39,234 nucleotides of DNA, taken from positions 1-39,234 of the forward strand of contig JWZX01002561.1 of NCBI GenBank assembly GCA_001275005.1, in the 5' to 3' direction. The notes under the pieces are model-generated. The model was given only the letters and a program-made list of their open reading frames with translations, had not been told where the DNA came from and made no database searches. Each line of letters begins with the position of its first letter. The stretch's first letter is position 1. This document shows, one piece after another, positions 2,134 to 34,926 of this stretch. The position numbers and the translations under genes are program-made. Source of the stretch: Chrysochromulina tobinii. Its lineage: Eukaryota.

Positions 2134-5100
2134 ATGATTTCCGACACCGCGCGTGCAGGCCTGGAGCTGCTCAAGGGCGGTGCCGTCGCCCTCAAGCACG
2201 GGAGAGCAGGGCAGCCGAAAGAGACCATCTTCACGCTCTCCGCCGACGAGAAAAGGCTCACTTGGGCGCCGATGCAGAAAAAGTCCATGCTCAAAAGCAT
2301 GGGCAGCTATGCGATCGGCAGCAGTAAGTCGGATGAGGATCGTCAAATGCGCCTGGCGGATGTCGTCGAGCTGCTCGTCGGTCGCGAGACGCCAATCTTC
2401 CAGCGAGCGGGCAATGACGCCGGCGGCAGCGAGCACCTCTCGCTCAGCCTCGTGCTCAGTGCCGCACAACGAAGTGCCGGGCGCGAGTCGCTCGACGTGT
2501 CGTTTGGCGAGGGCGGCGAAGAGACCTTTGGGCTGTGGGTGGCCGCGCTACGCCACTTGTTGAACAAGGGGAAACCCACTCAGTTGATCAGGGGCTCTTC
2601 GATGGCTTCCATGGAGCGGGTTGAGCCGCGGCCCGTTCCTGCCGAGGAGCCCCTGTTTACGCTGTCGCCGCAGCCGGTGGCTGTGTCGGCGCCGGCGAGC
2701 CCGGTCCCGGCACGCCCCAGCGAGTCTGCGCGGCCTGCCGATCCATTTCGCGGCCCTGGAGGTCTGATGGAAGACTTGATGCCCGGCGGCCCCATGGGTC
2801 TGCTCGGGACGACGCTGCTCGACAGCATGGTGCCTGACGGGTCAGGCCTGGGAGAGCTCCTCGACATGGCTGCGGGCGATGCGCTCATGTCCTCCGCGCG
2901 CGCGGCGGCGGCGATGGCGGGCACCTTATGTGCCATCGAGCAGATGCTCGCGGCCACGCACGCGGACCAGCTGCGCGCCGCCCTGAGCGAGGCACAGTCG
3001 ACGCCGGGGGTGCCCACCGAGGCACTCTCCCTCGCATCACGTCGGTTACTCGTGATGCAAGCGCCCGACGGCGGGCGGGAGGAGATGCAGGTGAGATGAG
3101 CTCGGATTGAGCCTCGGAATGCCTCTGACCACCCTCCGACGCGAGCGGGTGATTGCCTCTAATTGCCTCTAATTGCCTCGGATGGCTTCTGATTGCCTCT
3201 GACCACCCTCCGACGCGAGCGGGTCGAGGTGCAGATCCAGATCCAGATGGATATGAGCTCTAATTGCGCCTCGGATGGCTTATGATTGCCTCCAAATTGC
3301 CTCTGATTGCCTCTAATTGCCTCTGATTGCCTGGTGTGAGATGCAGATCCAGATGGCACTGCAGCAGATCATGTTCGAGACTAAGGGCAAGCTTGAGATG
3401 ATGGCGGCGCTGCAGGCGAAGCTCGAAGCGCTGCAAGGGGCGCAGGCGAGCATGGCTACTGATGGCTACTGATGTCTATTGATGGCCACTGACGTCTTTT
3501 GATGGCTACTGGTGGCTATTGATGGCTACTGATGTCTATTGATGGCTACTGATGGCTATTGATGGCTACTGATGACCACTTGATGGCCACTGATGGCTCC
3601 TGAGTGCCCCCTCGTCTATCAGGCACGCATGGCCTCTAATTGCCCCCTAATGGATTGCCTCTAATTGCCTCTAATTGCCTCGTTCATCAGGAACGCATGG
3701 CCGCTGAGAATGCGCAGCTGCGCGCGGCGGCGGCGGCGGGCGGCGGCCCACGCCGACCACGCCGAGCGAGCGCGAGTAAAGCGACCGGCCAGGAGGAGGA
3801 GGAGGAGGAGGAGGAGGAGGACGAGCAGGAGATATTTGATCGGGAGGCGCGCTTGGGTTATAAGAAGGCCAAGGGGACGATCATGCAAGCTATCCTCGAT
3901 GGGCGCGTGGGCACGGCGGAGGAGTACCTTGAGCGTGATGTGCATCTGTTCAGGCTGGCCGATGCCGACTTGCAGCGCGAGTACAATTGGTATACGACCG
4001 TGTATCTCGGCGACGACACGCCGCCGCCGGTGTGTTCGATGGCCGAGAGGACCCTCATCAAGCGGATTGCTCCTGATTGCTCCTGATTGCTCGGTGTGTC
4101 CGATGGCCGAGAGGACCCTCATCAAGCTGATCGCTCCTAATTGCTGCTGATTGCCATGTTTGGCAGGTGCGTGGGATGGCCGAGATGACCCTCATCAAGC
4201 TGGGTGAGGTCGTCGATAAGCCGCAGCGGATCCGCATCCGGTAGTGACGACCACTGATTGCGTCTGATTGCGTCTGATTGCGTCTGATTGCGTTCGATTG
4301 CGTCTGATTGCGTCTGATTGCGTCTGATTGCGTCTGATCCGTCGCGGCTCTCTCGTGTGAACAGTCTGATCGAGAGGCAAGCTGAAGAAGCCAAGGCCGC
4401 TAGGGAGGCTCGTGAGCGCGAGAATGCCAAGAATGCGCAGGAGCGCGAGCTGCGCCACAAGCAGAACCGGATGAACCAGGCGGCGTATGACGAGTGCCGC
4501 GCGCGATGGCTGCCGCTGCTCGCGCACATGGAGGAGGACGCCCTGATGGCCGTCCTAAGTGACGCCGAGCGAACGCTTGCACGCCGCGTGAGCCATCGAG
4601 CCGAGCTTAAGCTTGTGGTCATCACCTTGGACGAGGTGCGCAAGATGCCGCCGGGCCGATTCACCGCGATGGGCACCTCGGGCCTCAAGCCGACGGAGAT
4701 GCGCGCGGTGCTCTACGCGATCCACCAGGCCAGCCCCCCCAGCGCGAGCGCGATGCAATTCGGCGCGATGCTCGGAGTCAAGGTGGCGCAATTAGCCGAC
4801 TTTGAGCCGGCGCCCGAGACGGCGCCCGAGACGGCGCCCGAGACGACGCCCGAGACGGCGCCGGTACCGCAGGCCATGCCCGCAGAGGAGCAGGCGCCCG
4901 GCACAGCGCCTCCAGCGCCAGCCCGGCCTCCCCGCCCGCCACCCTGCCCGCCGCCCATGCCGCCACCCATGCCGCCCCCCAAGCCAGCGACCCCCAAGCC
5001 GCAGTCGCCATCGGCGGTGGGAAGCGACAGTCGCACCGCTCTGCTCGACGCAATCAAGGCAGGCGCGGGAGGTCTCAAGAAGGCAGCGGACCGCACCGCA

Positions 5101-5396
5101 GCGGACCGCACCGCACCGGACCGCACCGCACCGGACCGCACCGCACCGCCAGCGCCGCCGCCGCCAGCGCCGCCGCCGCCGCCGCCGGCAGCATTCGCGC
5201 CGCCGGCAGCGCTCAATGCAGCGCTCAACGGCATGCCGTCCTCGCCGCAGGGCGGGGCGCCGTCTCTGGGCGAGGCGCCGTCTTGGGCGCCGTCTTCACC
5301 GAGTGGAGCCGATTCGTCAGGCGGGCGGACGGATATGCTCGAGGAGCTGGTGCGCAAGGCGAACGCGCGCGCGGCGACGGCGCAGAAAGCCCAAGA

Positions 5397-5443
<47 letters not shown>

Positions 5444-5505
5444 TTCGATCCGAAGAGGCACGCGCTGCCGCGGAGGCGGAGGCACGAGCTGCGGATATGG
5501 ACTGA
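2134..5505 (+). CDS. Multi-exon PH-domain protein with coiled coil, proline-rich region and WH2-like motif
   Basis: N-terminus LKHGRAGQPKETIFTLSADEKRLTW...LWVAALRHLL resembles a PLC-type PH domain. Inferred exons 2134-3090, 3347-3445, 3691-4029, 4167-4240, 4365-5505 join in frame (intron 2 has a GC donor). Poly-Pro tracts, then SRTALLDAIKAGAGGLKKA (WH2-like). Confidence 0.72.
3150..3331 (+). repeat. Intronic degenerate 10-bp microsatellite (ctaattgcct/ctgattgcct)
   Basis: Visible tandem units inside inferred intron 3091-3346. Confidence 0.85.
3451..3599 (+). repeat. Intronic 10-bp tandem repeat (gatggctact)n, ~15 units
   Basis: Visible 10-bp period inside inferred intron 3446-3690. Confidence 0.92.
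4254..4338 (+). repeat. Intronic 10-bp tandem repeat (ctgattgcgt)n, ~8 units
   Basis: Visible inside inferred intron 4241-4364. Confidence 0.92.
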
Positions 5506-5775
5506 TTCAAACCCAGACTTTTAGTTCGATGGATGATGCAGCCATAGCCGGCCGGGTCGGCCGCGGGCTCCAGCGTGCGCGCCCATCTCCGTCGCAGCGG
5601 TAATAAAACGAGCCGTGTAGTGTGTAGGATAGCGTTGGCCGTTGCGTTCAGTGACACAAAGATGGCTCTCCAATTAAGGCCACGCGCTGTATGGAATAAT
5701 CATGCTTATGAAAGGCTAATAACAAAACCTAAAGTGCGGTGTGCGCGAGATTTCAGAGTTTGCGGAACGAGCTTG

Positions 5776-6843
5776 TCATCGCGAGGTATCCTTTTCGCTC
5801 CGGAGGAGGCCCTGGGACTCCTCCTCAACGGCCGCGGCATCGGGGGCGGGGGGAGGCGGGCGCACGGGCGCCACAGGGCGCGCGGGCGCCACGGGGCGCG
5901 CGTACAGCGCCACGCCAGCCGCGACCAGCAGTGCCGCGACGAGGCCGGTCGCGTTCAGTTCGGTGCCGAAGAGAGCTGCGGAGGCAAGCATGGTGAGGAC
6001 GACCTCCGTGGCGGCGGCGATGTTCTTGAGGACGGAGTCGAGATGCTTGAGGAAGTAGCCGGTCACCAGTCCAACCGACGACATGATCGCCATGATCGCG
6101 AGAATTGTAGGCGTGCAGATCGCGGCGAGGTTCTCTGGGGCGACTGCCTCGCCCAGCCGACCCTGAGCCATCAGAAAGGCGCCATTCCACACGATGGAGT
6201 GCAGGTACATGTACGCATTCTGCAGGTTGGTGGTGACGCCGCGCGCGAGCCCTCCGTCGCCGCCCTTGAGCAGCAGCTCGGTGTACACGCCCGCGAACAC
6301 CGACGCCAGCAGCTGCGCCAGCAGCAGCAGCCACGCACGCGCGCTCGCGCTCAGGCTCGTGCTCGAGGTGAGCTTGTCCGCCTCCTTGCACATGCAGCCG
6401 AGAGTGATGAGCACGATGCCCAGCCACTGGTTGCGGCTCAGCCGCTTCGTGAAGAGCACCTGGTACAGCACGCCCGTCATCACGATGCGCGCCTGCATGA
6501 GCACGTTGTACGTGCCCGGGTCAAAGGTCGACAGGTTGATGTACACGAGGTTGTTGTACACGCAGTAGAGAAGCGCGGGCACGGCATACTTGAGCAGCAG
6601 CGGCACCGAGTCGCGCGTCGCCTGCACCATCTGCGCCAGGCTGCCGTCGTATGTCACGTAAAAGGACGTCGCCATGATGAGCTTGATGAGCTCGGTGAGC
6701 AGCACGACCGAGGTGGCGTTGAAATCGGGCGCGCCCGCGCGCTTGCTGGCATAGATCAGCAGGTGCGAGCTTACCCAGAGCAACACGTACCCAACGAAGA
6801 TGCCCCGCTTCAGCGGGGTGTCGAGGCCTAGGACCGACGACAT
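5776..6843 (-). CDS. Nucleotide-sugar transporter, SLC35A family (CMP-sialic acid/UDP-Gal/UDP-GlcNAc type), 355 aa
   Basis: From MSSVLGLD (ATG 6843): multiple TM helices; family motifs VVLLTELIKL, YAVPALLYCVYNNL, TYNVLMQARI, FAGVYTELLLK, LKHLDSVLK. Confidence 0.92.
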   Translation of the reverse strand: MSSVLGLDTPLKRGIFVGYVLLWVSSHLLIYASKRAGAPDFNATSVVLLTELIKLIMATSFYVTYDGSLAQMVQATRDSVPLLLKYAVPALLYCVYNNLVYINLSTFDPGTYNVLMQARIVMTGVLYQVLFTKRLSRNQWLGIVLITLGCMCKEADKLTSSTSLSASARAWLLLLAQLLASVFAGVYTELLLKGGDGGLARGVTTNLQNAYMYLHSIVWNGAFLMAQGRLGEAVAPENLAAICTPTILAIMAIMSSVGLVTGYFLKHLDSVLKNIAAATEVVLTMLASAALFGTELNATGLVAALLVAAGVALYARPVAPARPVAPVRPPPPAPDAAAVEEESQGLLRSEKDTSR

Positions 6844-7342
6844 GGCCCTCGGAAGGCCCGTGTGAAAACACGGCGAACATTGTAGGGTGTGTGGGGAAAC
6901 TGCGACTCCCCGACTGCGACTCCCCGACTCGCCAATTGGCGAGCATAGATTCACAGCTGTGTCAGCAGTCAGTTATGGGACAATTGTTGTGGGATCGCGG
7001 GCTCCCCCCGCGCTCATCACACTCCGTCTCAAAGGACGGCTCCGCTGCCCTCGGTCAACACAAGCATTAAGTACTCGCTCTCTCGGGCTCCTCAATGGTT
7101 GCTACATGAGGTCCGGTGCTCTCCCAGCGCACAGGCGTGATCCCTCACCCTGCGGCCTGGTCTGCCGCTCGCTGTGCCGTGCCCGTACACAGAGAGGTGG
7201 GACGTGTGGCAGTGTCGGACGTTCCGTTCAAGTCTCGCACGAGACGTGTGTGTGTGTGTGCCTCGCGCCCATGATTTCCTTCACCTAACGTAGTGAGTTC
7301 AAATACGAAATAGACCCAGGGGGCCGACCCTAGAGAGTCGTC

Positions 7343-7801
7343 TTACCGCAAGAAACATGCTGAAAACGTACCTGTGTGCTGTGAGATGGTGCTATTTTGC
7401 CGGTGCCCAGATCGGGGAGGATACCACAGGCATGCCCTTGCGCTCATCGCCGAGTTGCAACGCCCTTTCAACATACTGTCACGGCAGGAATCGATCGCGT
7501 TTTCAGTGGTGGATAAGGTCATGGGTCGGAGGGAAGGCGACCCATTGCGCACCAGCTTGATTTCGTCTTTCTTCAGGTGCATATCCTTATTGATGGGCGT
7601 CACGCGAAATTGGTAGCGCGAGAGATACTCGGAGGTGACCGGGCCGGCCACCGGCGCATCCCCGCCCGTCCAGATGGCCGGCGCGAAGCCTCGTCGCGGC
7701 AGCATGAATCCCGGATTGATGTTGGTGTTGAGCGATCGTGGCAGGGCGTTCAGGCACGCCTGGAAGCGCCGCTTCTGGTATTCCTCCTTGCTCACGCTCA
7801 T
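7343..7801 (-). CDS. Hypothetical protein (~150 aa); 3' end may be spliced
   Basis: ORF from MSVSKEEYQKRR (ATG 7801), divergent from the 8058 gene. A strong donor cacag|gtacgt at 7371 could join to an acceptor at 7150, giving a slightly shorter C-terminus. No recognisable domain. Confidence 0.45.
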   Translation of the reverse strand: MSVSKEEYQKRRFQACLNALPRSLNTNINPGFMLPRRGFAPAIWTGGDAPVAGPVTSEYLSRYQFRVTPINKDMHLKKDEIKLVRNGSPSLRPMTLSTTENAIDSCRDSMLKGRCNSAMSARACLWYPPRSGHRQNSTISQHTGTFSACFLR

Positions 7802-8057
7802 GACAGTCCGGAGCGAATCCGCACCACCCACGGTTTCTCGTTGCCTCACAAGCAGCCCCGACGAGCGGCTCGAGTGCCGAAACGACGGCGATACTTGGGC
7901 GCGTCCTGTTGGGCTCATCGATCTGCGTTGAACAAACAGTATGCAAGAAGAAGCTTCCCCAAAACTCTGCTTCACGCTTTGATTACTCTTTGATTCACAG
8001 AGCAACTCACAGAGCGCGCCGCAGACCGCGGCACCGTGCTCCTCCTACCGGCGGCCA

Positions 8058-9119: not shown

Positions 9120-9487
9120 TTCGGTAGCTCGTGCGATGCGGCGGAGGCCGTGACAGCGCTGTACTGGGCGTCCCAGCTGGCCAGGAGCGGGGGCGCGCGG
9201 AGCTGGAGGCGCGCGGTGCTCATGCCTCATCGCAGAGACGGCAGCTCGGCCCTCGGCTGTGGGGCAGAGGCTGGGCAGCGAAGTCAGAGGAGTACATTGT
9301 AGAGAGGCAAGTAGAGACGTGCCTTACTTTCACTCTTTCACAGTGACGATCTCGGCGCGCGCGGATTCAAGAGTGTATTGCGAACGTTTCAAGATACTCG
9401 GTCCTTTCAGGTCGCCCGAAGCTCTTTCTGTCCTGCACACCCACACCTGTGCTTCGTCAAACATTTGTTTTGCAATCGAATCACAAA

Positions 9488-11192: not shown

Positions 11193-11320
11193 CGGCCTGG
11201 TCATACCTTCAGTCTGGCCATACCTTCGGACTGTATAATACCTGACAACAAGTCATACCGCGTTCTCACATACCTTCAATCTGGTCATACCTTCGGCCTG
11301 GTCATACCTTCGGACTGTAA
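11193..11320. repeat. Degenerate short repeats (ctggtcataccttc) spanning and following the Rab-like stop codon
   Basis: About five copies of (tgg)tcataccttc; the last contains the stop codon (tca at 11302). Confidence 0.8.
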
Positions 11321-12176: not shown

Positions 12177-14358
12177 TCACAAGTGTGTGAAACGCGGCCT
12201 GCCCGCGCCGGCCGCGCCGCCCCCATGGCCACCCCGTGGCCATGCGCCGCCCTTGGGAAGCAGGTTCCTGCCCTTGCCCTTGCCCTTGCCCTTGCCCTTG
12301 CCCTTGCCACCCCAACCCAGTTGCGACAGTTCCCGTCGGGCTAGTCCCGCCTCCGTGCCCTTGCCAGAGCCCTTGCCCTTGCCGCTGGCGCCACCGCTCT
12401 TATTGACACTCTTGCCCTTGCCGTCGCCCCAGCCACTCGTGACCGTCTTCGTCGACTGCAGCTGCAGCCAGCGGAGGCGTGCGGGCCGATCCGGCACGTG
12501 CGGGCCGGCCAGCGTCAGGTTCCACAGGCGCCTCACCATCTGCAAGAGCTCGATGCGAGTCGTATTGTGCGCGGGCAGGTAGGCGAGATTGTCTCCCTCA
12601 TTAGGGTCGGACTGAGGGTTCAAGAGGGATTCGTCGATCAGCCGACGAGGCACAATCAAGAGCAATCAAGGGCAATCAAGAGCAATCAAGGTCCATCACC
12701 TGATGGTCAAAGAGGGACTCGTCGATCAGCCGATGCGGCACGCGAAAGGGCATCTCCTTCTTGTTGGGCACCCCCGCCGGCTTCAGGTACGCTACGTACG
12801 CGTACCTGGGCGTGCGCACGTACAGCTGCCACCCATCGCCGACTAGGCGACGTGGCAATGCTCCGGGGAGGAGCTCGTCGGCAGCGCGATGAAGGACAGT
12901 CCATTCGCGGAGCTCCGATCGCGCTATGCGCGTGCGCCGGAGCGCCGTAGCGAGCGCCGTGGACGACGACGAGGACGGCACAGCAGGGCCTATTGCAGGC
13001 CTGTGCATGGCGGCGGCGGCAGTGGCGGCAGCCGTGGAGACGTACGGCAGCAGCGATTCACCTTCGATCAGCGTCGGCGCGCCACGTAGACGAAAGCGCG
13101 TCGGGGGAGCCGTACCCGCCGCCCGCGCCGCCGCCACCTCGTCCGCCGTCGGCGGCACACGAGGTACGCCCCAAAGGTCGAGGAGGGTCGACATGACATC
13201 AAGGCTCTCGACGATATCGGTGACGACGGCGGGCGGTTGGCCTGGTATGGAGAAGAGCAGAGGCACGCGAGTCGCGTCCTCATACAAATTGTACTTGGAC
13301 CAGCGCCCGTGACGTCCCAGCGAGAAGCCGTGGTCACCTTGCACCACGACCGCCGTACGCGCACGCAGCTCGAGCGCATCGAGCCCGTGCAGCAGCGCAC
13401 CGATCTGCTCGTCCACGTGCGTGGCGCACGCGTAGTACAGCCCGATCGCCTCCCGCGCCCACTTGGCGCCAACATCGAAGCGCGGCACGTCCCAGTTCGG
13501 CCACGTGACGAGGGGGGGGTCGCGCTCGGTCGCGCGCGGGGGGGGCAGCGCCACGTGCGGCGGCAGCTCGCGCCCGCCTACGGCCTCGGACGCGGCGGGC
13601 TTGCAGATGCGGGCGCCATGGACGTGGGTCGATGCAAGCCCAACAGCCAAAAAGAAGCGGGCGGTGCGCTGTGCCGCATGAAGCGCGAGCATCCGGAGCG
13701 CGACGGCGGTCTTGGACTGGTCGTGCGAGCGCGTCAACACCTTGCGTATGCCGCGGCCAACGTCACCATGCCCAACCGGCTGCCCACTCTCCCAGGAATC
13801 TGGCGCGTGCCACCAGGTAGCGTTGAGCGCTTCGCGCAGCGAGCGGCGCGCGACCGCGTTGGAGCTCGCGTCGATGGCGGTGCGCAGCCTCGCGTCGGCG
13901 AGATTCGAGGCGGATGCGTTCGCGTCCAGGTACGCCTCGCCGTTCGTGAAGCCATACGTCTCCTTGTCGCACGCGATGTGAAAGATCTTGCCGCGGCCGG
14001 CGCATGCGACCGCGGCGGCGCCGTCGGCCGTGCGCGGCCCGTCACGAAGAAAGTCGACGATCGTCGGCAGCCCCTGCGGGAACGCGTCGTCGTTCGTCCA
14101 CACGCGCGTGCTCGTTGGCCGGCGGCCGGTCAGGAACGAGGTGCGCGACGGATTGCAGATCGGCGCCTGGCAATAGGCGTTCTGGAAGACGACGCCGCGC
14201 GCGGCGAGGGAGGCGAGGTAAGGAGTGTGTCGCCGATTGGCGGCGGTCGCGTCGGCGGAGAAGACGGGCGACGCGAGCGTCGAGAAATCCTCGAGCACGA
14301 CGTAGAGGATGCTCGGCATCGGGGTCGTCGCCGCGGTGGCCGACGATGTTGCGCCCAT
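12177..14358 (-). CDS. Sulfatase, iduronate-2-sulfatase/choline-sulfatase-like, one intron (12612-12699)
   Basis: Formylglycine motif CNPSRTSFLTGR, GKIFH, GDHGFSLG..G.WSKYNLYE..TRVPL. Splicing restores LFDHQ|SDPNEGDNLA (sulfatase L.D...DP.E..NLA motif). Gly/Lys-rich tail. Confidence 0.9.
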
Positions 14359-15682: not shown

Positions 15683-15724
<42 letters not shown>

Positions 15725-17980
15725 TCCGACATGCGCGGCAGCTATCGAGGAGGCGAGAGCGGTTTCACACTGCATGACGCGCTGTGCGAGTTCTTCGCCG
15801 AGGAGACGATCGCGGGCGACGACTCGTACCGATGCGAAAAGTGCAAGGCGCTGCGAAAAGCGACCAAGGTCCTTCGCCTCTCTCCTCCGCCCCTCCCCTC
15901 CCCTCGTGCATGCAAGTGCTAACCACGGCGCCGCCACTTCCCCTCAGGTCCTTCGCATCCTCAACTCGCCTCCCCTCCTCTGCGTCCATCTCAAGCGCTT
16001 CTCGTTTGACAAGCGCGCGGGCAAGGCGGGCGGGCGCGTCGCCTTCCCACTCGAGGGCCTCTCGCTTGCTCAATTCGACGCTGCCGCCAAAGCAGCGCCC
16101 ACTACAGCGCCCACTACAGCGCCCACTCCCGCAACCTCCTCCCGCAGCGCCAAGGCCGAAGCGAGCGCTGTATCGGGCGCATCGTCCTCCCACGCGGACG
16201 CGCCCGCCAGCGCGAGCCGTTACCCGCCGAGCCGTTTCCCGCCGAGCCAACGCGGCGGGGGCACCCACTGCCTGTACGACCTGTGCGCAGTCATAGTCCA
16301 CCACGGACAGGTGAGGGCCTCTCTGTGCTGACTCCTCTGTGATGCCCTCTCTGATTGCGTCTCTGATTGCGTCTCTGATTGTGTCTCTGATTGCGTCTCT
16401 GATTGCGTCCCTCATCAGTCGCTGAGCCACGATTGCGTCTCTGATTGCGTCCCTCATCAGTCGCTGAGCCACGGGCACTACACGGCCTTCGTACGCCACC
16501 CGTCGGGGGAGTGGTATCACATCGATGACACGAACGTCACCCTGGTGGGGCCAGCCGAGGTCGCCGCCGCCGAGGCATACCTATTGTTCTACGAGCGCCG
16601 CCAAGACCCGCGCTGGAAGGAGCAGCGCCGTCAGGTACTGATTGCATGCTGATTGCCTCTCTCATCAGGAGGAGCTCGGATTGCATGCGGCTGATGGCCT
16701 CTCATCAGGAGGAGCTCGGATTGCTGATTACCTCTCTCATCAGGAGGAGCTCGGATTGCATGCGGCTGATGGCCTCTCTCATGGCATGCTCATTGCCTCC
16801 CCATGGTAGGTGATCGCCGAGGTCGAGGCGTTCACACTCGGCGTTCACACGTCCAAGTCCGGCGGCCGTGCTGATGGCTCGACGGTCCTCTTATCGAAAG
16901 CATGGTGGGCGCCCGTTATCAGGCCTCTGATGACCGTTGATGAGCTCTGATTGCCTCCCTCATCAGTCGAAAGCATGGTGGGGGGCCTTCATCAGGCCTC
17001 CCCACCACGGCGCATGCAAGTGCTCACCACGGCGCTCTCGCCTCCCCACAGGTGGGCTCGGTATAAGGCCTGCGACGACCCCGGGCCGGTGACGCACGCG
17101 GACGTGCTCTGTGCGCACAACTGCGTCGACACGCACCACAACCGTAGCGTCGAGGCCTCGCGCCGCTGCTTCATGGACTTGCCACGCCCCGTGTAATTGC
17201 ATGCTGATTGCCTCTCTCATTGCATGCTGATTGGATGCCTCGCGCCGCTGCTTCATGGACTGGCCACGCCCCGTGTAATTGCATGCTGATTGCCTCTCTC
17301 ATTGCATGCTGATTGCTGCTTCATGGACTGGCCACGCCCCGTGTACGCACGCCTCACCGAGCAGCTCCACTCGCCTCCCCTCGCGCATGCAAGTGCTCAC
17401 CACGGCGCCCTCCCCTCCTCCCCACAGGTACTTTCGCCTCACCGAGCAGTTCTGCTACGGCGACGGCCCGGCGTACCAACTGCCGGCTGCCCAGCTGATA
17501 GAATGTCCTAAGTGCAAGCAGACGCATAAGGCAGAGGCGCGCGCCCTGCAGGACGAGCGTGACGAAATCCGAAGGCTCGACTCGACGGAGATCTCGGAGG
17601 GTGGCATCTGGTACATCGTGGACGCGAACTGGCTCACTCGCCTCCCCCCCTCGCGCATGCAAGTGCTCATCACGGCGCCTTCGCCTCCTCACAGGTACAT
17701 CGTGGACGCGAACTGGCTCAAGCATTGGCGCGAGTACTGCTGGGATAGTATTCGACCTGACCCGCCCGGCCCCGTGAGTAACTGGCGGCTCCTCGCGCCG
17801 AGCAAGATGCCGCGCCAGCACCTGCAGCGCGCCACTGATTACCGAGGCGTTAACGAAAAGGTGTGGCAAGTCTTTGTGGAACGGTATGGGGGCGGCCCGC
17901 CCATTTGCCGCGCCAAGCTCGACATCTATGCCCCTCCCGTGCCGCCCCCCGACCTCTCCGCCCCGTCGCGCCGCCGATGA
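14543..17980 (+). CDS. Ubiquitin-specific protease, USP20/USP33-like, with two C-terminal DUSP domains; 7 inferred introns
   Basis: Cys box [25 protein letters not shown], zinc CxxC pairs, VHLKRF, His box [35 protein letters not shown] motifs [11 protein letters not shown] and [10 protein letters not shown]...YGGGP. Introns 15126-15302, 15869-15947, 16311-16460, 16635-16809, 16905-17051, 17193-17427, 17611-17694 are all GT-AG and phase-consistent. Confidence 0.9.
15908..15947 (+). mobile_element. Intron 3'-end cassette, family A, copy 1 (Introner-like)
   Basis: gcatgcaagtgctaaccacggcg + pyrimidine tract + cag; the intron start gtccttcgc repeats the next exon start. Confidence 0.6.
16351..16472 (+). 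repeat. Intronic 12-bp microsatellite (ctctgattgcgt) with a 42-bp duplication of the acceptor site
   Basis: 16389-16430 is identical to 16431-16472. Confidence 0.9.
17012..17051 (+). mobile_element. Intron 3'-end cassette, family A, copy 2
   Basis: gcatgcaagtgctcaccacggcg...cctccccacag. Confidence 0.6.
17385..17427 (+). mobile_element. Intron 3'-end cassette, family A, copy 3
   Basis: gcatgcaagtgctcaccacggcg...cctccccacag, preceded by a copy of the next exon (cgcctcaccgagcag). Confidence 0.6.
17655..17694 (+). mobile_element. Intron 3'-end cassette, family A, copy 4
   Basis: gcatgcaagtgctcatcacggcg...cctcacag; an exact 26-nt duplication (17611-17636 = 17695-17720) brackets it. Confidence 0.65.
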
Positions 17981-26334: not shown

Positions 26335-26534
26335 GAGGAGCGTTTGATCGTTTTGGTGGCAGGGCAGTTCTCTTTCGAAACTGTCACGGTGAGAGAGAAC
26401 GGTTATTCGTCTTTGCAGAAGAGAATCTCCAAACATGTGACACTTTCTCCACGAGCTGCCCCTTTACTCATTTAACGTGCACAAATTTTACTAGTAATGA
26501 CTTGACTTGTCTTGGCTTGAAACTTTCGGCATCG

Positions 26535-28864
26535 ATGAGCGGCGACATCGGCGGAGCGGAAGAGGACTCCGAGGAGGACCCGGAGTTCTCGCCCGACCTG
26601 GGCTTTAGCAGCGTCGCAAAGCCGCTCTCGTATCAGCACCCGCACGCGCACGTGAAGACGGAGATAGGGGACGCGTGCTTTGGCGTGCCGTACGGCGACG
26701 AGGATGATGAGGACGACGAGGACGAAGATGAGGGCGATTCCGACGCGCTGAGCGACGAGATCCGCTTCAGCCACGAGCGCTACTTCTCGCCGCGCCTGCA
26801 CGAGCTGCTGCGCGGCTCGGTCAAGGGCGGTGACCCTGCGTCGCACACGGGGCTACTCACGGGCGTGCGGCCGATGCTGCTGCACCAGAGCGACTCGCCA
26901 CATCCAGAGCGCCCCGCACGCCTCGTCGCCATCTACAATGAGCTCATCGAACGCGGGCTCGACGCGCGCTCGCGCCTGGTACCGGCGCGAGAGGCAAGCA
27001 CAGCTGACCTCGAGCTCGTGCACACGCCCGAGCAGGTGGCTAAGTCGACAGGGCTGTACCCGAGCGACGGCGCGGCGAGCGCGACACTCGGCCTCGACAG
27101 CGACACCTACTTCGCCGCAAGCGCCTCCGGGTACGCGGCCCGCCTCGCGGCAGGCTCCGTCGTCGAGCTGGTCACGCGAGTGGTGCACGGCGAGCTGCGG
27201 AATGCGCTCGCAGTGGTGCGTCCTCCAGGGCACCATTGCGAAGCGACGCAGGCGATGGGCTTCTGCCTGCTCAACAATGTGTGCGTGGCCGTCGCCGTCG
27301 CGCGCCGCCGCCTCGGGGTCCCCCGAGTCCTCGTCGTCGATTGGGATGTTCATCATGGCAACGGCGTGCAGGTGCGTCGATGGGGACCGCTGATGACCTC
27401 CCTCATCATAATCATGACCTGCCTGAACGCCTCATTGAACGCCTCTCTGAGAGTTGCCCTACTGACGGCCTCGCGACTGCAGAACATCTTTCGCGACGAC
27501 CCGACCGTCCTCTACGTATCGCTGCACAGGTGCACGCGGATTGCGCGCGGAGTGCACGCTGATTTCACGCTGATTGCACGCTGATTGCACGCTGATTGCA
27601 CGATGATTGCAGGATGATTGCACGACGATTGCACCCTGATTGCACCCTGATTGCACGCTGATTGCAGGATGATTGCACGACGATTGCACGCTGATTACCT
27701 CTTCGTATCGCTGCACAGGTACAGTCACGGCGCTGATGGATCCGACCCGCCCGCGGCGCCGGCTCGCATGCCGTTGTGTTCTTTCCGCGTCTGTGAAGGC
27801 TGCTGACTGGGCGTTCGCGTCTGTGATTGCTGTTTGACTGGCCGCTGAGTGGCGTCTGATGGCCTCCTTCTTCAGGTACGACCAACTCGCCGGGTCGGCG
27901 TCTGATTGCGTATGATTGCGTATGATCGCGTCTGATGGCCTCCTTCATCAGGTTCGGGCGTGGCTTCTATCCGGGGACAGGCCACCCCAGGGACGTGGGT
28001 GACGACGCGGGCGAGGGCACCTCAGTCAACGTCGCTTGGGAGCGCGGTGAAGGCTATTCCGATGCGGAGTACCTTGCCGCCTTCGATCGTCTCATCATGC
28101 CCATTGCGCGCGAGTACGCGCCCGAGCTCGTGATCGTCTCGGCCGGATTCGACGCTGCACGCGGCGATCCGCTTGGGGGTATGGGCCCGGCGCCTCGATA
28201 TGGACTCGATGAGTGCTCCCGTCATCTCCCGATGATTAACTCCGTCATCACGGCGCCTCGATATGGACTCGATGAGTGCCCCTCGAATGGCGACAGCAAA
28301 TTGCTACACTCATTGCCTCCCTCCTCACTCTGATGACGTCGGATTGCGTCCTCGAGCCGGAGACGTAACGCCAGCCTGATGACGTCTGATTACCTCCCTC
28401 CTCACTCTGATGACGTCTGATTGCCCCCCTCCTCACTCTCATGACTTCTGATTGCCTCGCTCCTCACAGGAATGGACCTAACGCCGGCTGGCTACTTCCA
28501 CATGACCACTCTCCTCGGCACGCTAGCGGCCGGCCGTCTCGTCATCGCCCTCGAAGGCGGCTACAACCTGCGCTCGATTGCCGACTCGGCGGCCGCTGTC
28601 CATGCGAGCCTCCTCGGCGACCCACCGCCGCTCCTCATGCGCCGACCGCCGCGTCCGGAGGCTCTCGCCGACATCGAGGCCGCCGCGCGCGCGCTCGCGC
28701 CGTATTGGGCGTGCCTGCGCCCGCCGCCGCTCGCACGGCCAGCTCCAAAACGGGCGCGCGGTGCGCCCGCGGGCAACGCCCGGGACAGCGCCGGCGTGTA
28801 CAAGAAGAGCAAGGGAAGACGAGGTCGCCTGCACGGGCCGTGGTGGTATAGGTTCCTCTACTAG
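26535..28864 (+). CDS. Class II histone deacetylase (single catalytic domain), 3 inferred introns
   Basis: HPERPARL, RPPGHH, AMGFCLLNNV, DWDVHHGNG.Q, SLHR|FGRGFYPGTG, VSAGFDAARGDPLG, LEGGYNL. Introns 27372-27482, 27530-27951, 28179-28469 are phase-consistent. Confidence 0.93.
27530..27697 (+). repeat. Intronic 11-bp tandem repeat (ttgcacgctga)n, ~15 units
   Basis: Directly visible at the start of HDAC intron 2. Confidence 0.92.
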
Positions 28865-29704
28865 GAGCCGTGCACAGTATGGGTACACCACCGATCGAAG
28901 GCGTACCACATGATGAGGCGACGACGGACGGTGTGAGCCGAGAACAAGAGCTGCGAAAAGCGGACGAGAGAACGGCTGGTTGATGGGGGCGTGCATGCGG
29001 AGAGACTGATTCGACATAATTCCGAACTCGTATACGGTCACGTCAGAACCGAAACCGACTCTAGGTCATGACTCTACGGTACGTTCTCTGAACAAACAGT
29101 ACACAGAAACGGTTGAGATCATTCATCTCAGATCATAAACAAACAGTTCGTGTCCCGCTCAACTGACACCGTATCATGGAAAAGTCGCTCCCGTGAGAAC
29201 AACTTCGTTCCGCTGGCGCGCTGGGGTGTGGCTGTGCGGGACCGGATTAACGGATTGTACCATGGGCATGGTGAACATGTACCGGGCCCGTGGCTACCAG
29301 ATGGCCACAAAAAACAGTGGCGATCGGGTAATCAGAACGTCGAAAAACTGAATTTCCTTAATCCGATCTACACTCGGATATGGTCGCACTTGACACTCTC
29401 TACGCCATGTGCCTTTCATGACGTCTCATGGTGCCTTTGTCGTGTGTGCCAACGCAAGGAAATCAAGAAACGATGGATTATCGTGGAGCTGAGCTTTAAC
29501 ATTTGCCACGCAGCCACGCTATGAATCCGAGAAGCTGCAATGAGAGGATGACGTGCGGATGATTTCACCTTTGCCAGTTGCATGCAGACGGGCGAGACGC
29601 ACCGTTACACAAAAATTGTGACGTGTCTGTGCGTGTCGAGGAGATAGGAATCCTACAAAAGACAAGACGTCACGCTCACCAGTTCGCCGGGTCCCAAGCG
29701 CAAC

Positions 29705-32320
29705 ATGCTAAGAGTAGTAAAGGACCCAGGCATCGACATGCCACGGGTACCCTCGGACGACAAGATATCCCCACACACCAAAAGTCGGCGCCACGCGGAG
29801 AAGCTGGACAAGTTCGTGAAACGCCACGGTGTCGAGGGCGCCGCAGCCCTTCAGGCAGAGACCGAGAGGATGGCAGCGATGATCAAGGCACATGAGCAGA
29901 GGACGAAAGTCACGAGCTGGGTGATGACGCCCGGCAAATCCGCATTTCTGGCCTTCTGGGACTTCCCGTCCTCAGTCGCCCTCTTGTACACGCTGAGCAT
30001 CAGCCCGTTTGAGGCGGGCTTCGTCGAGACGACCGTCGGCGCAGCCGCCTGGAGGGACCCGTACTTCATTGCGAATCGCGCCATCGATCTCGTCTTCTTG
30101 TTTGATATGATCCTGCAGTTCTTCATCGCCGTCGAGAACCAAAGCTTGGATATTGCCGGTGAGACTCTCTGGGTCACGTCCCCACGAAAGATTGCCAAAC
30201 GGTACTTGATGTCGTGGTTCCTGCTCGACGCCGCCACGCTCTTCGTGCCCGCGTACTTTGACATTGCGACCGCGACGGGCGAGATGGGAGACGATGCGCC
30301 TGACCCCTCGGCGCTTCGCGCCCTGCGCGTGGTTCGCTTGACCAAGCTCGTGCGCCTTGTGCGCGCCTCGCGTATATACAAGCGCTTGCTTTCCAAGATC
30401 ACCCTCTCCTCAGCCCAGTTGACGGTGCTCACCTGCGTGACGTTGCTCCTGGTCGGCGCCCACCTTTACGCGAGCATCCTCGGCATCTGTACGGCGATGC
30501 ACTCGAACAAGCAGGACACGTGGCTCGGCGATGCCAAATATGGCTACTGCAAGGACGATGCTTGCCAAGTGAGCACCCCTACTCTCTACCTTGCGTCGTT
30601 CATGTGGGCCGTCATGATCATCACGGGCACGGGCGGCACCGACTTCTACCCGAGCGAGTCTTCGGAAGCCGAGACGATGCTCGTGCTGGTCTTGATGCTT
30701 GTAGGAGCGTTGCTCTGGACGTACCTGCTTGCCCTCTTCTGCGACATGGCAACCAACGGTGAGCCGGGCATGACGCACTTCAAGCAGTTGCTCGACTCCC
30801 TCAACCGGCACGCGAACGCGCACCAGCTGCCCAAAGAGATGGCGCGCCGGATCCGCGAGTACATGTACCAGCAGCAGCCCTCACAGCTGTCCAAGTACAA
30901 CGAGGGTGTCATCTCGTGCTTGTCGGCCGGCCTCCAGTGCGAGATCCTTCTCTACGTGAACCGGCCTTGGCTCCAGAAGGTCTGGTTCTTCCAAAACCTC
31001 GAGCCCGCGTGCTTGGCGCGGCTGACGCGCGAGATGTCGGCGCTCACGTTCGCCCCGAGCGAGATCGCGCCGCTCCAAAACCTGTACGTGGTCTGTCGTG
31101 GGATGGTGCTTTACGGGAGCTTGATCTTGCGCAGCGGCGCAGTCTGGGGGGATGACGTCATCCTGACCGAGCCTCGTTACTTCTCGAAGCGACACGCGCG
31201 CGCGATCTCGTACGTGGACACGATGATGCTCAACCGTGACACGCTCACGCAGGTGATCGTCCTCTTCCCCGCCTCCAAGGCACGGCTGCGGCTGATGATG
31301 ATCAAGCTCGCGCTTCGTCGGCACATCGTTGAAGCCGCGCGCTGCCAATGCACGAACGCTGGCGACCTGTTCAGGCATGCCGCCCCGGGTGGCACCGATG
31401 GTATCTCATTCTTCAGCCGACTGGACAAGGATCGTGATATGGCCCAACGGTCAGATGCGATCATCGGCACCCCGAAGAGCAAACGCCAGCAGAAGCGATG
31501 GGACAAGCAGAAGGCGTGGCTCACGGAGAAGAAACGTGACGAGGAGGCATTCGATGGCACCCGCACGACGATCTTGATGGCGAACCAGATTCCACAGACG
31601 CAGTGGCGCGACGCTGGCGATGCGCCTCTCGAGGACGACAAGCACGCGTGCATCATGTTCGCGATGGACGAGCTCAGTCAGAAGCTGATCAGCATGCAGA
31701 AACAGCACAGTGCGGACATGCAGCGCCTGTATCGGCATGTGCAGGGCCTCGTCGGCGGTGCTGGTGCAGCAGCAGGGTCGCAAGCGCTTCCCACTGGCGC
31801 GGAGGCGCGCCGTACCCAGGCGCAGGGCGGCAGTCCTTACAACCCGTCGAAGAGCCCATCGGCGCAACGTTGGGTCTGCCCCGACGGCATGGACAAGCCA
31901 AGCCAAGTACTCTGGGACGACCGTCCTGCTCTGGGGCCGAGCAGCAAGTACTCTGGGACCGACAAGGATCGATTCCCCGACTCAGGCCCGCCGACGCCGC
32001 GGATGGGTTCCGGGCCTCCGCGGCGTGCGACCTCAGGCTTCGAGCACAAGCGGCTCGGGTCGCCTGACCTAAGCGGCAAGAGCAAGAGCGAATCTTTTGA
32101 TCGTCCCCTAGCTAAGCGCGTCCCCGTCGCCGCCATTGCCACCACCGGAACCGGGAGCAACGGAGGCGCCGTCGTGGCACCGTTGGGCCTATCGCAGTCT
32201 GTGGAGTCGACTGCATCCTTAGCGAATCATGTGCAGTCTGCACAGCGCGCCTGGCTGCAGCGCTTCGGAAGGCCCCCAGGGTCGCCGCGGAATGACATCG
32301 TCACAGATATGCGCATATGA
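29705..32320 (+). CDS. Voltage-gated cation channel with C-linker and cyclic-nucleotide-binding-homology domain (KCNH/HCN/CNG superfamily), 871 aa, intronless
   Basis: Six TM segments, IAKRYL.SWFLLD, S4 LRALRVVRLTKLVRLVRASR, pore helix YLASFMWAVM, C-linker LPKEMARRIREY and CNBD-like FAPSE...LYVV.RG.V...WGDD...ARAISY. Confidence 0.9.
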   Translation: MLRVVKDPGIDMPRVPSDDKISPHTKSRRHAEKLDKFVKRHGVEGAAALQAETERMAAMIKAHEQRTKVTSWVMTPGKSAFLAFWDFPSSVALLYTLSISPFEAGFVETTVGAAAWRDPYFIANRAIDLVFLFDMILQFFIAVENQSLDIAGETLWVTSPRKIAKRYLMSWFLLDAATLFVPAYFDIATATGEMGDDAPDPSALRALRVVRLTKLVRLVRASRIYKRLLSKITLSSAQLTVLTCVTLLLVGAHLYASILGICTAMHSNKQDTWLGDAKYGYCKDDACQVSTPTLYLASFMWAVMIITGTGGTDFYPSESSEAETMLVLVLMLVGALLWTYLLALFCDMATNGEPGMTHFKQLLDSLNRHANAHQLPKEMARRIREYMYQQQPSQLSKYNEGVISCLSAGLQCEILLYVNRPWLQKVWFFQNLEPACLARLTREMSALTFAPSEIAPLQNLYVVCRGMVLYGSLILRSGAVWGDDVILTEPRYFSKRHARAISYVDTMMLNRDTLTQVIVLFPASKARLRLMMIKLALRRHIVEAARCQCTNAGDLFRHAAPGGTDGISFFSRLDKDRDMAQRSDAIIGTPKSKRQQKRWDKQKAWLTEKKRDEEAFDGTRTTILMANQIPQTQWRDAGDAPLEDDKHACIMFAMDELSQKLISMQKQHSADMQRLYRHVQGLVGGAGAAAGSQALPTGAEARRTQAQGGSPYNPSKSPSAQRWVCPDGMDKPSQVLWDDRPALGPSSKYSGTDKDRFPDSGPPTPRMGSGPPRRATSGFEHKRLGSPDLSGKSKSESFDRPLAKRVPVAAIATTGTGSNGGAVVAPLGLSQSVESTASLANHVQSAQRAWLQRFGRPPGSPRNDIVTDMRI

Positions 32321-32977
32321 GACCTCGCGCGCAGCATGGTGTACGCTCTTCGCTGCGAGGCTGCTCTGGGACCCACTCGACTGAGCTGTAGCCGACTTGC
32401 CGCGGATTGCTGCTGGGGGCTTCTGGGGGCGACCGACCGTTGGGCGATAGACTGAACGAGCTGTGGTTACGAAAGGGGGCTACGGTGCTCCTTGCCCTCT
32501 GCAAGCGCGCGAGGTGATACAGCTGGCGATGCGGGCTACCATGTCTTGATGGAATTCCATTCGTGTGGGTCTACGGACAGAAGGTCTACGGATGAGTGTG
32601 CGAGCGACTGCGCCTCACTCCGAGCGGTTTCTGAGCGGTCGTGCGTCGAGCACAGGGCAGGTAGCCGGGCAGGCACACTGACACACGTGCACGCCCCTGT
32701 CGTGGACGCACGGATTCGTGTCAGTCATGATGTATGATGAGCAGATGAGCTCAACGTTCATGCGGGCGATCGAGAGCGAATTTTGTAGTTTATGTGGAGG
32801 TGTTGACCGTCGGGACATGCATGATCCGTGGCAGCGTGGTGTTCTTATGGCGCAAATGTGGTTTAAAGCTGTTCACAGGACACCGTTCACAGATCTTGAC
32901 ATGTCTTGATCGCTGAAACTGGTCGCCTCCGACACGCGCGGCGGATCGCGAATCGCACGCAACGCACGACGACCACG

Positions 32978-34926
32978 ATGCCGCTGGCGGCAGCAGACCT
33001 GGAGAAGGTGCAGTCCCTCGCGCTTGCCCTACGGAGTCTATCAAGCATCGCACAAAGCTCCACACTCGCATACCCTCGTGTTCGGCCGGGCTGGCCCAGG
33101 GGTGCGGTGGGCACAGAATGGAAATGCCCATGGAATTTTGGCCACTCGCAGTGTGCCATGCTGTTCCTCGCACATGGCCTGCCCCTGTCTGCTGAGTCGG
33201 AGGCTGCCATACAATGGGCGATGCAGCTGAAGCAGAGGCTGAAGAGCGCAATCCTAAATTACAGCTTGGAACATTGGCCATCTGCATGTGCGCATGGGCG
33301 CTGGAGGGCCGAACCTGATTGAGAGCCCTTGCGCATGTGCACTCGCCCTTCCTGACTCGCGTCTGCTTGGGCCGTGAGGAATCCAGGGCGGGCGTACAAC
33401 CCAGCTGGCATTGACGAGGACCACCTCCTCATGCGCGTGGACCCGCTGGATGACGGTTACGTGTTGCCAAGGTTTCACCACTTTGTGTGGTTCGAGCGTG
33501 GCCAGCTCGCCGGCTCCCACAGCGGCTGCGACGCGCGCGGGATCTGGCTGGACCAGTACACCCTCCTTGCCGTGTACAATGAGATGACGATCTTCCCACA
33601 TTACAAGCAGGGAGACCCCCTCTACCCTGGCTCCGGCAACAATCGGGTGCACATGTACGCGCTGAACCTGAGCGCCGGCAAGCACACCCGACCAATCCAG
33701 CTGAAGCTCGTGGGCCTACCGTCCCAAGTTTGGGAGAAGAACTGGGCTCCGTTCGTGCACAATGGCGAGCTGTTCATGAGCTACAAGCTCCGGCCGCAAC
33801 ACCTCGTCCTCCGCTGCAAGTTGAGTGCCGTAGTACCGGGCGCAGCGCCCCCCGAGGTACCGCAAGGCCCTGGGGATTGTCGCGTGGCGCATGCAAGTGC
33901 TCACCACGGCGCGTCCTCCCCTTTCCCCACAGGTGCCGCAAGGCCCTGGGGATTGTAGCGTGGCGTTCAACACGACGAGCCCCGACACGATGTGGGCGCA
34001 GGCCGTCGACCACATCGTGTCGAACGTGCGCTTGTCGACGCCGCCGATGCTCGTCGATGGACGTTTCATCGCGGTCATGCACTACGAGCCCATACTTGGC
34101 ATGTACGAACACTCTTGATTGCATCTGATTGCATCTGATTGCCTGCATCTTCAGCCTCGCGAGCTCGCACTCCGAGCCCATACTTGGCACTCACGAGCAC
34201 TCTTGATGGCCACACTGATGAGGTCTGATTGCCTCCATCATCAGGTACGAGCACGCCTTCTACGAGATGCAAGCCGAGCCGCCCTTCGCCATCCTTCGCA
34301 CCTCGAGACCGTTTCGGCTCTCGGACGCGGGCCTCGCCGTGCCCAAAGTTGCACGCCAGAACGGCGCGACCTTTGAACGTGATAAGGGCGTTCAGTACAT
34401 CGTCGGGCTCCACCTCGAGAGGAATTCGTCAAACGACGGCGCTCAGCACGGCGCGAGCGGCGGCCGTCACGATAGCCGACGCGTCACGATGACGTACGGC
34501 TTGATGAACCACTATAGTATGAAGACCTCCATCCAGCTGGGTACCATCTACCGTATGCTCGCCGACAGTGAGGCCGACCCCGCCCGGTACCGCTCCTGCT
34601 TGGTCTCGACGAGGGGCGATGGGCAGTGCCGTGAATCCAATTGCCGAAGCCCCGACACACCGTCCAAGTTTGTGAATCCGCATGCGCCGGAGCGCGGGGT
34701 GAGCCAGTTCGTGAGCCCGCACAGAGGGGGCCACCCGATCACACCCGAAGACGTCAAGCTGGCCATCTGCCCGAACCTGTGCACGAAGTACAATTACGAG
34801 TGCAATGATGTCAAGAGCATGCAGCGCGCTCTGAAGCTGGATCGGTCCGAGGGGGGCACCGAGGTGGCTTTCTACAGCCATGCCGCCACTCAGTTTGAGA
34901 GGTTGCTCGCGGGCGACCAGGGATGA
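32978..34926 (+). CDS. Beta-propeller glycosyltransferase/hydrolase-like protein (beta-1,2-mannosyltransferase GT91-like motifs); 3 inferred introns
   Basis: YNP, DAR, WEKNWAPF..NGEL..SY.L.P.HLVL and spliced MYEHAFYEMQAEPPFAILRTS. Introns 33857-33932 and 34103-34244 are well supported; intron 33288-33386 and the start at 32978 are less certain. Confidence 0.62.
33889..33932 (+). mobile_element. Intron 3'-end cassette, family A, copy 5
   Basis: gcatgcaagtgctcaccacggcg...ttccccacag bracketed by a 33-nt duplication (33857-33889 vs 33933-33965, 2 mismatches). Confidence 0.65.

What the first reader, a model, noticed from the sequence alone, without database searches (positions are those of the whole stretch)
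3091..34244. Second intron class: sense-strand 10-12 bp TGATTGC-type microsatellites with duplicated exon edges
Seen: introns at 3091, 3446, 4030, 4241, 16311, 16635, 17193, 27530, 28179 and 34103 are filled with units such as ctaattgcct, gatggctact, ctgattgcgt, ctctgattgcgt and ttgcacgctga, and often end in or contain (C/T)ATCAG. In the minus-strand sulfatase gene the repeat appears as gcaatcaaga on the + strand, so it follows transcript orientation. I saw no such arrays in intergenic DNA. Each unit carries a branch-like CTGAT/CTAAT and the period is close to one DNA helical turn. Some units echo the flanking exon (gcatggc to gatggctact; ctgcacag to ttgcacgctga). Inference: reiterative synthesis at insertion or repair builds arrays of branch signals, or the array is an intron-definition signal.
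Basis: partly seen in the sequence, partly recalled or inferred. Interest (0 to 1): 0.8.

Follow-up and report, generated by a model that had tools for sequence, protein, structure and literature searches.

The report
Repeat-filled algal introns with copied edges
In a freshwater haptophyte alga, many introns are filled with 10-12-base repeats of a branch-point-like motif that always face the direction of transcription, and many carry a copy of the neighbouring exon edge, which likely records introns being built or extended by DNA copying that pastes in splice signals from other introns.

Summary
Eleven introns of a Chrysochromulina-type haptophyte hold 10-12-bp arrays with a (C/T)TGATTGC core; RNA contigs splice out 9 of 11. 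Of 51 TGATTGC sites, 47 are intronic and sense, 0 intronic antisense and 0 intergenic. A branch-like motif lies 17-21 nt before the AG in 9 of 11 introns that end this way. Copies of the exon junction occur in 8 of 11 array introns; in 5 the copy lies like a target-site duplication (9-42 nt). The non-repeat GCATGCAAGTGCT introns show the same footprint, so it does not define a second class. The claim that units echo the exon is not supported overall (combined p=0.32). A diverged USP gene copy and the nearest HDAC relative have no intron at these sites, but two HDAC sites also hold introns in non-sister lineages. Best reading (0.5): microhomology-guided templated insertion copies the branch and acceptor region from existing, often neighbouring, introns, and slippage then expands it. 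I recall 10-11-bp strand-biased intron repeats from the Emiliania genome paper, which I could not retrieve. This scan earlier noted a duplication-flanked intron elsewhere in this genome.

The parts
3091..3346 (+). GT-AG intron, 10-bp ATTGCCTCTA-type arrays; ends in a 9-nt copy of the upstream exon end; holds an inner copy of the exon-exon junction
   Evidence: RNA joint in X1, X12; echo tests; five allelic forms of its 5' part
3446..3690 (+). GC-AG intron, 10-bp ATGGCTACTG array plus a second segment after an inner CAG at 3622; starts with a 17-nt degenerate copy of the downstream exon
   Evidence: frame only; echo p=0.005
4030..4166 (+). GT-AG intron; 34-nt copy of the downstream exon start, then GATTGCTCCT units, duplicated as 64 bp x2
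   Evidence: frame only; echo p=0.002; TRF
4241..4364 (+). GT-AG intron, CTGATTGCGT x8.5; no edge copy, but the unit resembles the junction
   Evidence: RNA joint in X1, X2, X13
12612..12699 (-). sulfatase intron, sense TTGATTGCTC units; its last 42 nt copy the upstream exon end and supply the AG
   Evidence: RNA joint in X1, X2; echo p=0.002
16311..16460 (+). USP intron, 12-bp TCTCTGATTGCG array; 3' end duplicated with 12 nt of downstream exon, distal AG used; site empty in L015
   Evidence: RNA joint in X1, X2, X13
16635..16809 (+). USP intron, 11-bp units and three inner CTCATCAG; shares 25 nt with intron 17193
   Evidence: RNA joint
16905..17051 (+). hybrid intron: 31-nt degenerate copy of the downstream exon, repeat-type terminal motif, then GCATGCAAGTGCT tail
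   Evidence: RNA joint
17193..17427 (+). hybrid intron: 11-bp units between copies of the upstream exon end, in front of a GCATGCAAGTGCT-type tail
   Evidence: RNA joint in X1, X12, X13
17611..17694 (+). non-repeat intron: perfect 26-nt copy of the downstream exon plus a tail most like that of neighbour 17193
   Evidence: RNA joint
27372..27482 (+). HDAC intron with decayed units; 111 nt, no in-frame stop
   Evidence: RNA joint in X1, X2, X3
27530..27951 (+). HDAC intron of three stacked GT..CAG segments (27530-27719, 27720-27875, 27876-27951); 11-bp TGCACGCTGAT x15 and 10-bp units; segment 1 ends in a copy of the upstream exon end
   Evidence: full joint in X1, X2; segment-1-only joint in X3
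28179..28469 (+). HDAC intron with 31-bp composite units ending CTGATTGCC..CAG; weak edge echo
   Evidence: RNA joint; p=0.032
34103..34244 (+). intron with 10-nt copy of the downstream exon, TGATTGCATC units and an 88-bp duplication
   Evidence: RNA joint in X1, X2
33857..33932 (+). non-repeat intron: 33-nt copy of the downstream exon plus GCATGCAAGTGCT tail
   Evidence: RNA joint in X1
15869..15947 (+). non-repeat intron with a degenerate copy of the downstream exon and GCATGCAAGTGCT tail; present in L015

Best explanation
These are spliceosomal introns filled with sense-strand 10-12-base repeats whose last unit likely serves as the branch point, and they were likely built or extended by microhomology-guided template switching that duplicates 9-40 bases of exon and pastes in the branch-and-acceptor region of an existing, often neighbouring, intron. 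Steps: (1, inferred) a broken or stalled DNA end in an exon switches to an intron template of the same orientation, copies part of it and returns a little upstream. (2, shown as geometry) the product is exon copy + insert + exon, with one splice site in the copy and one in the insert, so splicing restores the coding sequence. (3, shown as allele variation; slippage inferred) the unit then expands and reshuffles within each array. (4, partly shown) repeated events at one site stack segments and leave extra inner acceptors; the distal AG is the main one used. Nearby same-strand templates would explain why arrays are sense-only, absent between genes and clustered in a few genes.
For: Splicing. 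Localisation and strand. Last CTRAY/CTCAT lies at -17 to -21 in 9 of 11 repeat-ended introns, against -26 to -30 in 6 of 6 GCATGC-type ends. Junction copies beat all 1,177 control windows in 12 of 19 introns, 8 of the 11 array introns. Anchored duplication geometry holds in 5 of 11 array introns, one hybrid and three non-repeat introns; a simple tandem duplication beside an old intron cannot put downstream exon at the intron's first base (inference). The longest exact tracts shared between array introns are 30 and 25 nt, both within one gene; the cross-gene maximum is 14 nt (2 of 14 vs 0 of 63 pairs, p=0.03). The tail of 17611 scores best against its neighbour 17193, and both downstream junctions read GGTAC (sequence). 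Twelve of 18 genes have no intron against 6.9 expected (p=0.0004). L015 keeps two USP introns but is empty, codon for codon, at 16311. The HDAC sister P0029 (support 95/96) is uninterrupted at all three sites. Alleles differ in array content.
Against: Three of 11 array introns (4241, 16635, 28179) have no significant junction copy. HDAC sites 1 and 2 also appear to hold introns in non-sister lineages (P0238-40; P0231/32), so they may be old introns lost elsewhere or parallel gains. Uninterrupted relatives could be transcripts, and the first search admitted only long ORFs. L015 is more diverged just downstream of the empty site (34/145 vs 43/339 differences, p=0.004), so it may be a mosaic that lost the intron. 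No presence/absence polymorphism was seen among the listed strain variants. The same terminal motif recurs in unlinked genes, which local copying alone does not explain. The same-gene sharing rests on two pairs, one of them three consensus units. One antisense, non-intronic look-alike exists at 17969-18062. One window only; no genome was held.
Confidence: 0.5

Rival explanations
1. The introns are old; arrays grew in place by slippage of each intron's own branch motif in a genome prone to tandem duplication, and the exon copies are later duplications at intron edges.
For: Explains intron-only and sense-only directly. Each array has its own homogenised variant. Tandem duplications are common throughout the window (48 TRF rows outside introns). 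Two HDAC sites are shared with other lineages. Some copies (16311, 17193) are clearly secondary.
Against: Does not explain downstream exon at the intron's first base or upstream exon at its last base, the empty sites in L015 and P0029, or 25-30-nt tracts shared by neighbouring introns.
Confidence: 0.22
2. A mobile or RNA-templated element (introner-like, SINE-like primed reverse transcription, or repair templated by a splicing intermediate) carries the repeats and the CTGATTGCC..TCATCAG end into genes genome-wide.
For: A common terminal motif in unlinked genes. Many other contigs fit the repeat and GCATGC stretches and run on into unlike flanks. A constant 3' end with variable 5' extent and variable duplication is the geometry of target-primed reverse transcription (established knowledge). 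An earlier scan note reports over a hundred related duplication-flanked introns (not checked).
Against: No shared element body: the cross-gene exact match is at most 14 nt. No fixed duplication length, and no hairpin or inverted-end signal (z from -0.8 to +1.2). No intergenic or intronic-antisense copies, which a gene-blind element would leave. In two cases the insert supplies the donor rather than the acceptor.
Confidence: 0.2
3. The arrays are kept by selection as a functional signal, either a ladder of binding sites that defines introns in GC-rich genes or a helical-period chromatin mark, whatever first seeded them.
For: The period is confined to 10-12 nt. The core is shared across genes. 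12 of 13 repeat-type introns would bring an in-frame stop if retained. C. elegans PATCs are a precedent for 10-bp periodic elements (abstract).
Against: Six introns without arrays (7476, 15126, 15869, 17611, 33288, 33857) are spliced in the same RNA runs. Array content varies between alleles. The core lacks the A/T tracts of PATCs. There is no functional test.
Confidence: 0.08

Closest known systems
10-11-bp intronic tandem repeats of Emiliania huxleyi (Read et al. 2013; recalled, paper not held)
   Same: As I recall it: haptophyte introns with 10-11-bp repeats and a positional and strand bias, suggested to act in intron processing.
   Different: I could not compare motifs. The tie to branch position, exon-edge duplication and stacked segments is what this window adds, if that paper or its supplement did not already make it.
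Introners, including Chrysochromulina sp. family 5 (Gozashti et al., 10.1101/2022.06.06.494994; passages and section 8 read)
   Same: One splice site taken from a target duplication and one carried; found in the same genus.
   Different: Reported there with 4-bp duplications, carried 5' site and co-opted 3' site. Here duplications are 9-42 nt, both polarities occur, and array introns are not near-identical copies.
[quoted passage not shown] 2009, as summarised in 10.1101/051292, part 1 of 2 read)
   Same: New introns bounded by direct repeats, with heterogeneous inserts.
   Different: Here the inserts are stereotyped splice-signal repeats, apparently from other introns, and events recur at one site.
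Intron gain by tandem duplication (Hellsten 2011, PMC3265369, start of abstract; potato RdRp, PMC4974935, abstract)
   Same: Donor from a duplicated exon segment; branch and acceptor inherited from an existing intron (potato case).
   Different: Here the donor intron is not adjacent, so two template switches are needed, and most intron sequence is not exon-derived.
C. elegans PATCs (10.64898/2026.08.08.743475, abstract)
   Same: 10-bp periodic repeats linked to transcription.
   Different: PATCs are long Helitron-derived chromatin elements (A/T clusters, recalled); these are short arrays of a branch-like motif.

Membership tests
U2-type spliceosomal intron | GT/GC..AG ends and removal from mature RNA | tested here: met
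   9 of 11 array introns joined in RNA contigs; the other two restore an 869-aa frame
U2-type spliceosomal intron | branch motif shortly before the AG | tested here: met
   last CTRAY/CTCAT at -17 to -21 in 9 of 11 repeat-ended introns; sequence only
U2-type spliceosomal intron | actual branch use and pairing with this organism's U2 snRNA | not testable with these tools
   no genome held; no Rfam match in the window; no lariat data
Introner element | near-identical full-length copies at unrelated sites | tested here: not met
   longest exact match between array introns of different genes is 14 nt over 63 pairs; window only
Introner element | fixed short target duplication and/or terminal inverted repeats | tested here: not met
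   duplications of 9-42 nt in two polarities; terminal hairpins no better than shuffles
Introner element | a splice site co-opted from the duplication | tested here: met
   5 of 11 array introns
Introner element | recent gain shown by empty sites | tested here: inconclusive
   empty in L015 and P0029, but two HDAC sites shared with non-sister lineages; no polymorphism among strains
AGGT tandem-duplication intron | whole intron derived from duplicated exon, both splice sites from AG|GT copies | tested here: not met
   arrays are not exon-derived; only segment 1 of 27530 has AG|GT inside its duplicate
Break-repair intron gain | direct repeats at the insert edges | tested here: met
Break-repair intron gain | dependence on an end-joining or template-switching pathway | not testable with these tools
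   needs genetics
Emiliania-type intronic 10-11-bp repeats (recalled) | period 10-11 in introns with strand bias | tested here: met
   the definition is from memory
Emiliania-type intronic 10-11-bp repeats (recalled) | same motif | not testable with these tools
   paper not held; no Emiliania DNA available

The most novel reading that the evidence does not exclude
The arrays are a self-propagating splice-signal cassette: haptophyte repair, possibly templated by splicing intermediates, writes ladders of branch points with an acceptor into transcribed exons. It creates perfectly spliced introns without a transposase, reuses the same sites to build stacked, recursively spliced introns, and accounts for the 10-11-bp intron repeats of haptophytes as a group.
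Probability: 0.17. Interest if true: 0.85.

Novelty: new variant of a known kind. Interest (0 to 1): 0.55.

Why it matters
How new introns arise is still open, because few lineages keep fresh footprints. Here 12 of 19 introns in 39 kb still carry a copy of their own exon junction, in a culturable alga with many wild strains in public data. If splice signals are copied from neighbouring introns by repair, intron gain could run without a transposon, would cluster in genes that already have introns, and would give a cause for haptophyte intron repeats. Practically, these introns (GC donors, inner AGs) break gene models: the public model P0284 reads into intron 3446, and P0299 skips exons and reads through intron 17611.

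Tried and rejected
No whole genome was held, so the genome-wide strand test and the U2 check were not run. Viral-contig scans gave 14 loci, 13 unrelated or chance and one GC-rich contig with a GCATGC-type intron end. The prokaryote-genome scan gave one 31-nt match at the very end of a bacterial contig, probably chimeric or chance; not used. The metagenome scan gave 48 loci, of which only L015 is a close relative. A hairpin between CTGATGA and TCATCAG was rejected: nine 3' ends fold no better than shuffles. A general echo of the exon by the unit was rejected. A rule that retained introns always bring a stop fails for 27372. Rfam found nothing. The representative-protein search meant to confirm introns 3446 and 4030 never ran. 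Depth figures from contigs were not used to rank anything. Ten paper searches and passage look-ups in PMC4580454, PMC11347835, PMC12480563, PMC13518057, 10.1101/2024.05.26.595999, PMC12130899 and PMC4815162 showed no description of these repeats. The library lacks most subscription papers, and I saw no supplements (those of the introner papers and of the Emiliania paper may bear on novelty).
Full report
Organism. The window is 63%-GC eukaryotic DNA. Proteins in the same 90% clusters as four window ORFs are named Chrysochromulina tobinii, and the RNA holders are freshwater and mixed-culture runs. No whole genome was held, so all statistics are for this window plus fetched relatives.

Are they introns? 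Contigs of five RNA runs (X1, X2, X3, X12, X13; three studies) were laid on 26400-35000 and 2100-18100. They join across 17 introns, 16 listed with canonical ends and 17193 with three variant letters just after the joint. Nine of the 11 array introns are among them, including the minus-strand sulfatase intron. 3446-3690 (GC-AG) and 4030-4166 were not among the rows shown (23 were cut); with them the gene gives an open 869-aa frame, and the inner acceptor at 3622 does not. The spliced USP and HDAC proteins align to relatives across the junctions.

Is the pattern more than chance? TGATTGC occurs 51 times against 6.0 +/- 2.4 in shuffles. With my gene models, 47 are intronic-sense, 0 intronic-antisense, 0 in 9.3 kb outside genes and 4 exonic. 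Units within an array are not independent; counted by intron, 11 of 11 arrays are sense. Spacing is 10-12 nt in 46 of 77 gaps. Period 10-11 makes up 11 of 26 TRF rows in introns and 0 of 48 elsewhere. One partial exception is a 23-bp x4 antisense array over the USP stop with GATTGC-N4-CTCATC but no CTGAT or AG.

Anatomy. Each array has its own variant of a (C/T)TGATTGC core plus 2-4 bases. Several end in CTGATTGCC-N-TCATCAG. The last branch-like motif lies 17-21 nt before the end in 9 of 11 introns that end in repeat fashion (this set includes decayed 27372 and leaves out hybrid 17193), often with others at 10-nt steps; GCATGC-type ends put it at 26-30 in 6 of 6. That CURAY is the U2 branch consensus is established knowledge; its use here is inferred. 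A terminal hairpin was tested and rejected.

Duplicated edges. Local alignment of each intron to its own spliced junction beat all 1,177 control coding windows in 12 of 19 introns, 8 of the 11 with arrays. The stricter anchored test (594 controls) found downstream exon at the intron start in 3446 (17 nt), 4030 (34) and 34103 (10), and upstream exon at the intron end in 12612 (42) and 3091 (9). It also found downstream exon at the start in hybrid 16905 (31) and in non-repeat 15869, 17611 (26, perfect) and 33857 (33). This is the layout of an insertion between two copies of a target, with one splice site in the copy. The unit itself does not generally resemble the flank (combined p=0.32). Other copies are secondary: 16311 repeats its acceptor with 12 nt of exon, and 27530 is three stacked GT..CAG segments, with one X3 contig lacking only the first. 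That fits stepwise splicing or an alternative acceptor.

Are they new? L015, a roughly 75%-identical and probably decayed USP copy, keeps alignable introns at 15126 and 15869 but reads codon for codon through 16311; its higher divergence just downstream leaves loss by mosaicism open. Eleven HDAC relatives at 64-74% identity from the long-ORF search are uninterrupted at all three sites, some on contigs of 11-19 kb, and one, P0029, is the window's sister (95/96, 28 rows, bootstrap not fully settled). The shorter-ORF search gave six more uninterrupted environmental relatives among 20 hits, but also three that enter an intron at site 1 and two that stop exactly at site 2, in separate clades. Gain is therefore favoured, not shown. 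Among strain variants, read-through peptides show five forms of the start of intron 3091 in 14 sequences (15 of 39 members listed, one spliced model left out) and three forms of the first units of 27530 in 13 sequences (15 of 75 listed, two unusable), none identical to the window's; every listed sequence that reaches the site retains the intron.

Where do inserts come from? The two longest exact tracts shared by array introns (30 and 25 nt) are between introns of the same gene, and across genes the maximum is 14 nt (p=0.03 after leaving out one GCATGC-type pair). The tail of 17611 is closest to that of its neighbour, with GGTAC at both downstream junctions. Introns cluster: 12 of 18 genes have none, against 6.9 expected (several of these are judged intronless from open frames only, and retrocopies or transfers could also cause this). 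Local same-strand templates would give sense-only, gene-only arrays without RNA. The shared terminal motif and the many foreign contigs that fit these stretches show that the motif is also widespread, so longer-range copying or shared selection must add to it.

Mechanism and rivals. I commit to templated insertion with duplication followed by slippage (0.5). Growth inside old introns (0.22), a mobile or RNA-templated element (0.2) and a selected signal as the primary cause (0.08) remain open; they are not fully exclusive.

Known relatives. From memory, the Emiliania huxleyi genome paper reported strand-biased 10-11-bp repeats in introns; it is not held, so the basic pattern is probably known but unverified here. 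Introners are reported in Chrysochromulina sp. with 4-bp duplications (10.1101/2022.06.06.494994). The array introns fail the introner tests of near-identical copies and fixed duplication, while working like introners in borrowing one splice site. The potato case (PMC4974935, abstract) and break-repair gain (10.1101/051292) are the nearest mechanisms. GC donors are common in Emiliania (PMC4815162, passage). Ten searches found no description of these repeats or of their link to edge copies (listed under Tried and rejected); supplements were not seen. One earlier scan note from this genome describes a 15-bp duplication-flanked intron family; it agrees with the geometry but is not independent evidence.

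Verdict. Real, spliced, strongly non-random; a new variant of known intron-gain footprints rather than a new class of intron. Interest 0.55.

Noticed in passing
window 15869-15947, 16905-17051, 17193-17427, 17611-17694, 33857-33932; L014 ~4495-4545: Second insert type: a conserved GCATGCAAGTGCTCACCACGGCG..CCCCACAG tail of variable 5' extent behind 26-48-nt exon copies; more introner-like than the repeat type, and many other contigs fit it.
   Followed up: partly
window 17969-18062: 23-bp x4 array over the USP stop codon whose minus strand resembles the intron terminal motif; one RNA contig (X12) runs through it unspliced.
   Followed up: partly
window ~29900-31800 and ~37660-39234: Two diverged copies of an ion-channel-like gene (my reading of the sequence) in inverted orientation, about 6 kb apart.
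   Followed up: no
window 11678: All four RNA runs lack one base here, in a small-GTPase-like gene; likely an assembly error in the window.
   Followed up: no
window 17431-17433: RNA contigs X1 and X12 read CGC where the window exon has other letters, close to the copy of this exon start that lies inside intron 17193; the intron copy may preserve the older state.
   Followed up: partly
P0234 (HDAC relative): Read-through peptide suggests an intron about 12 nt upstream of window site 27372 that starts with an echo of the next exon and could encode a CTGATTGC unit; inferred from protein only.
   Followed up: partly
L015 9450-11190: Diverged USP copy with G>A-dominated changes that breaks off after the fourth exon; probably a decaying duplicate.
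   Followed up: partly
window 22911-24986: A 691-aa ORF whose cluster members are mostly about 382 aa, with a 60-bp x3.6 repeat in the middle; may be two genes fused in this strain.
   Followed up: no
window 11193-11317 and 1-310: A 17-bp x7 array downstream of the GTPase-like gene, and a direct repeat of about 75 bp near the window start.
   Followed up: no
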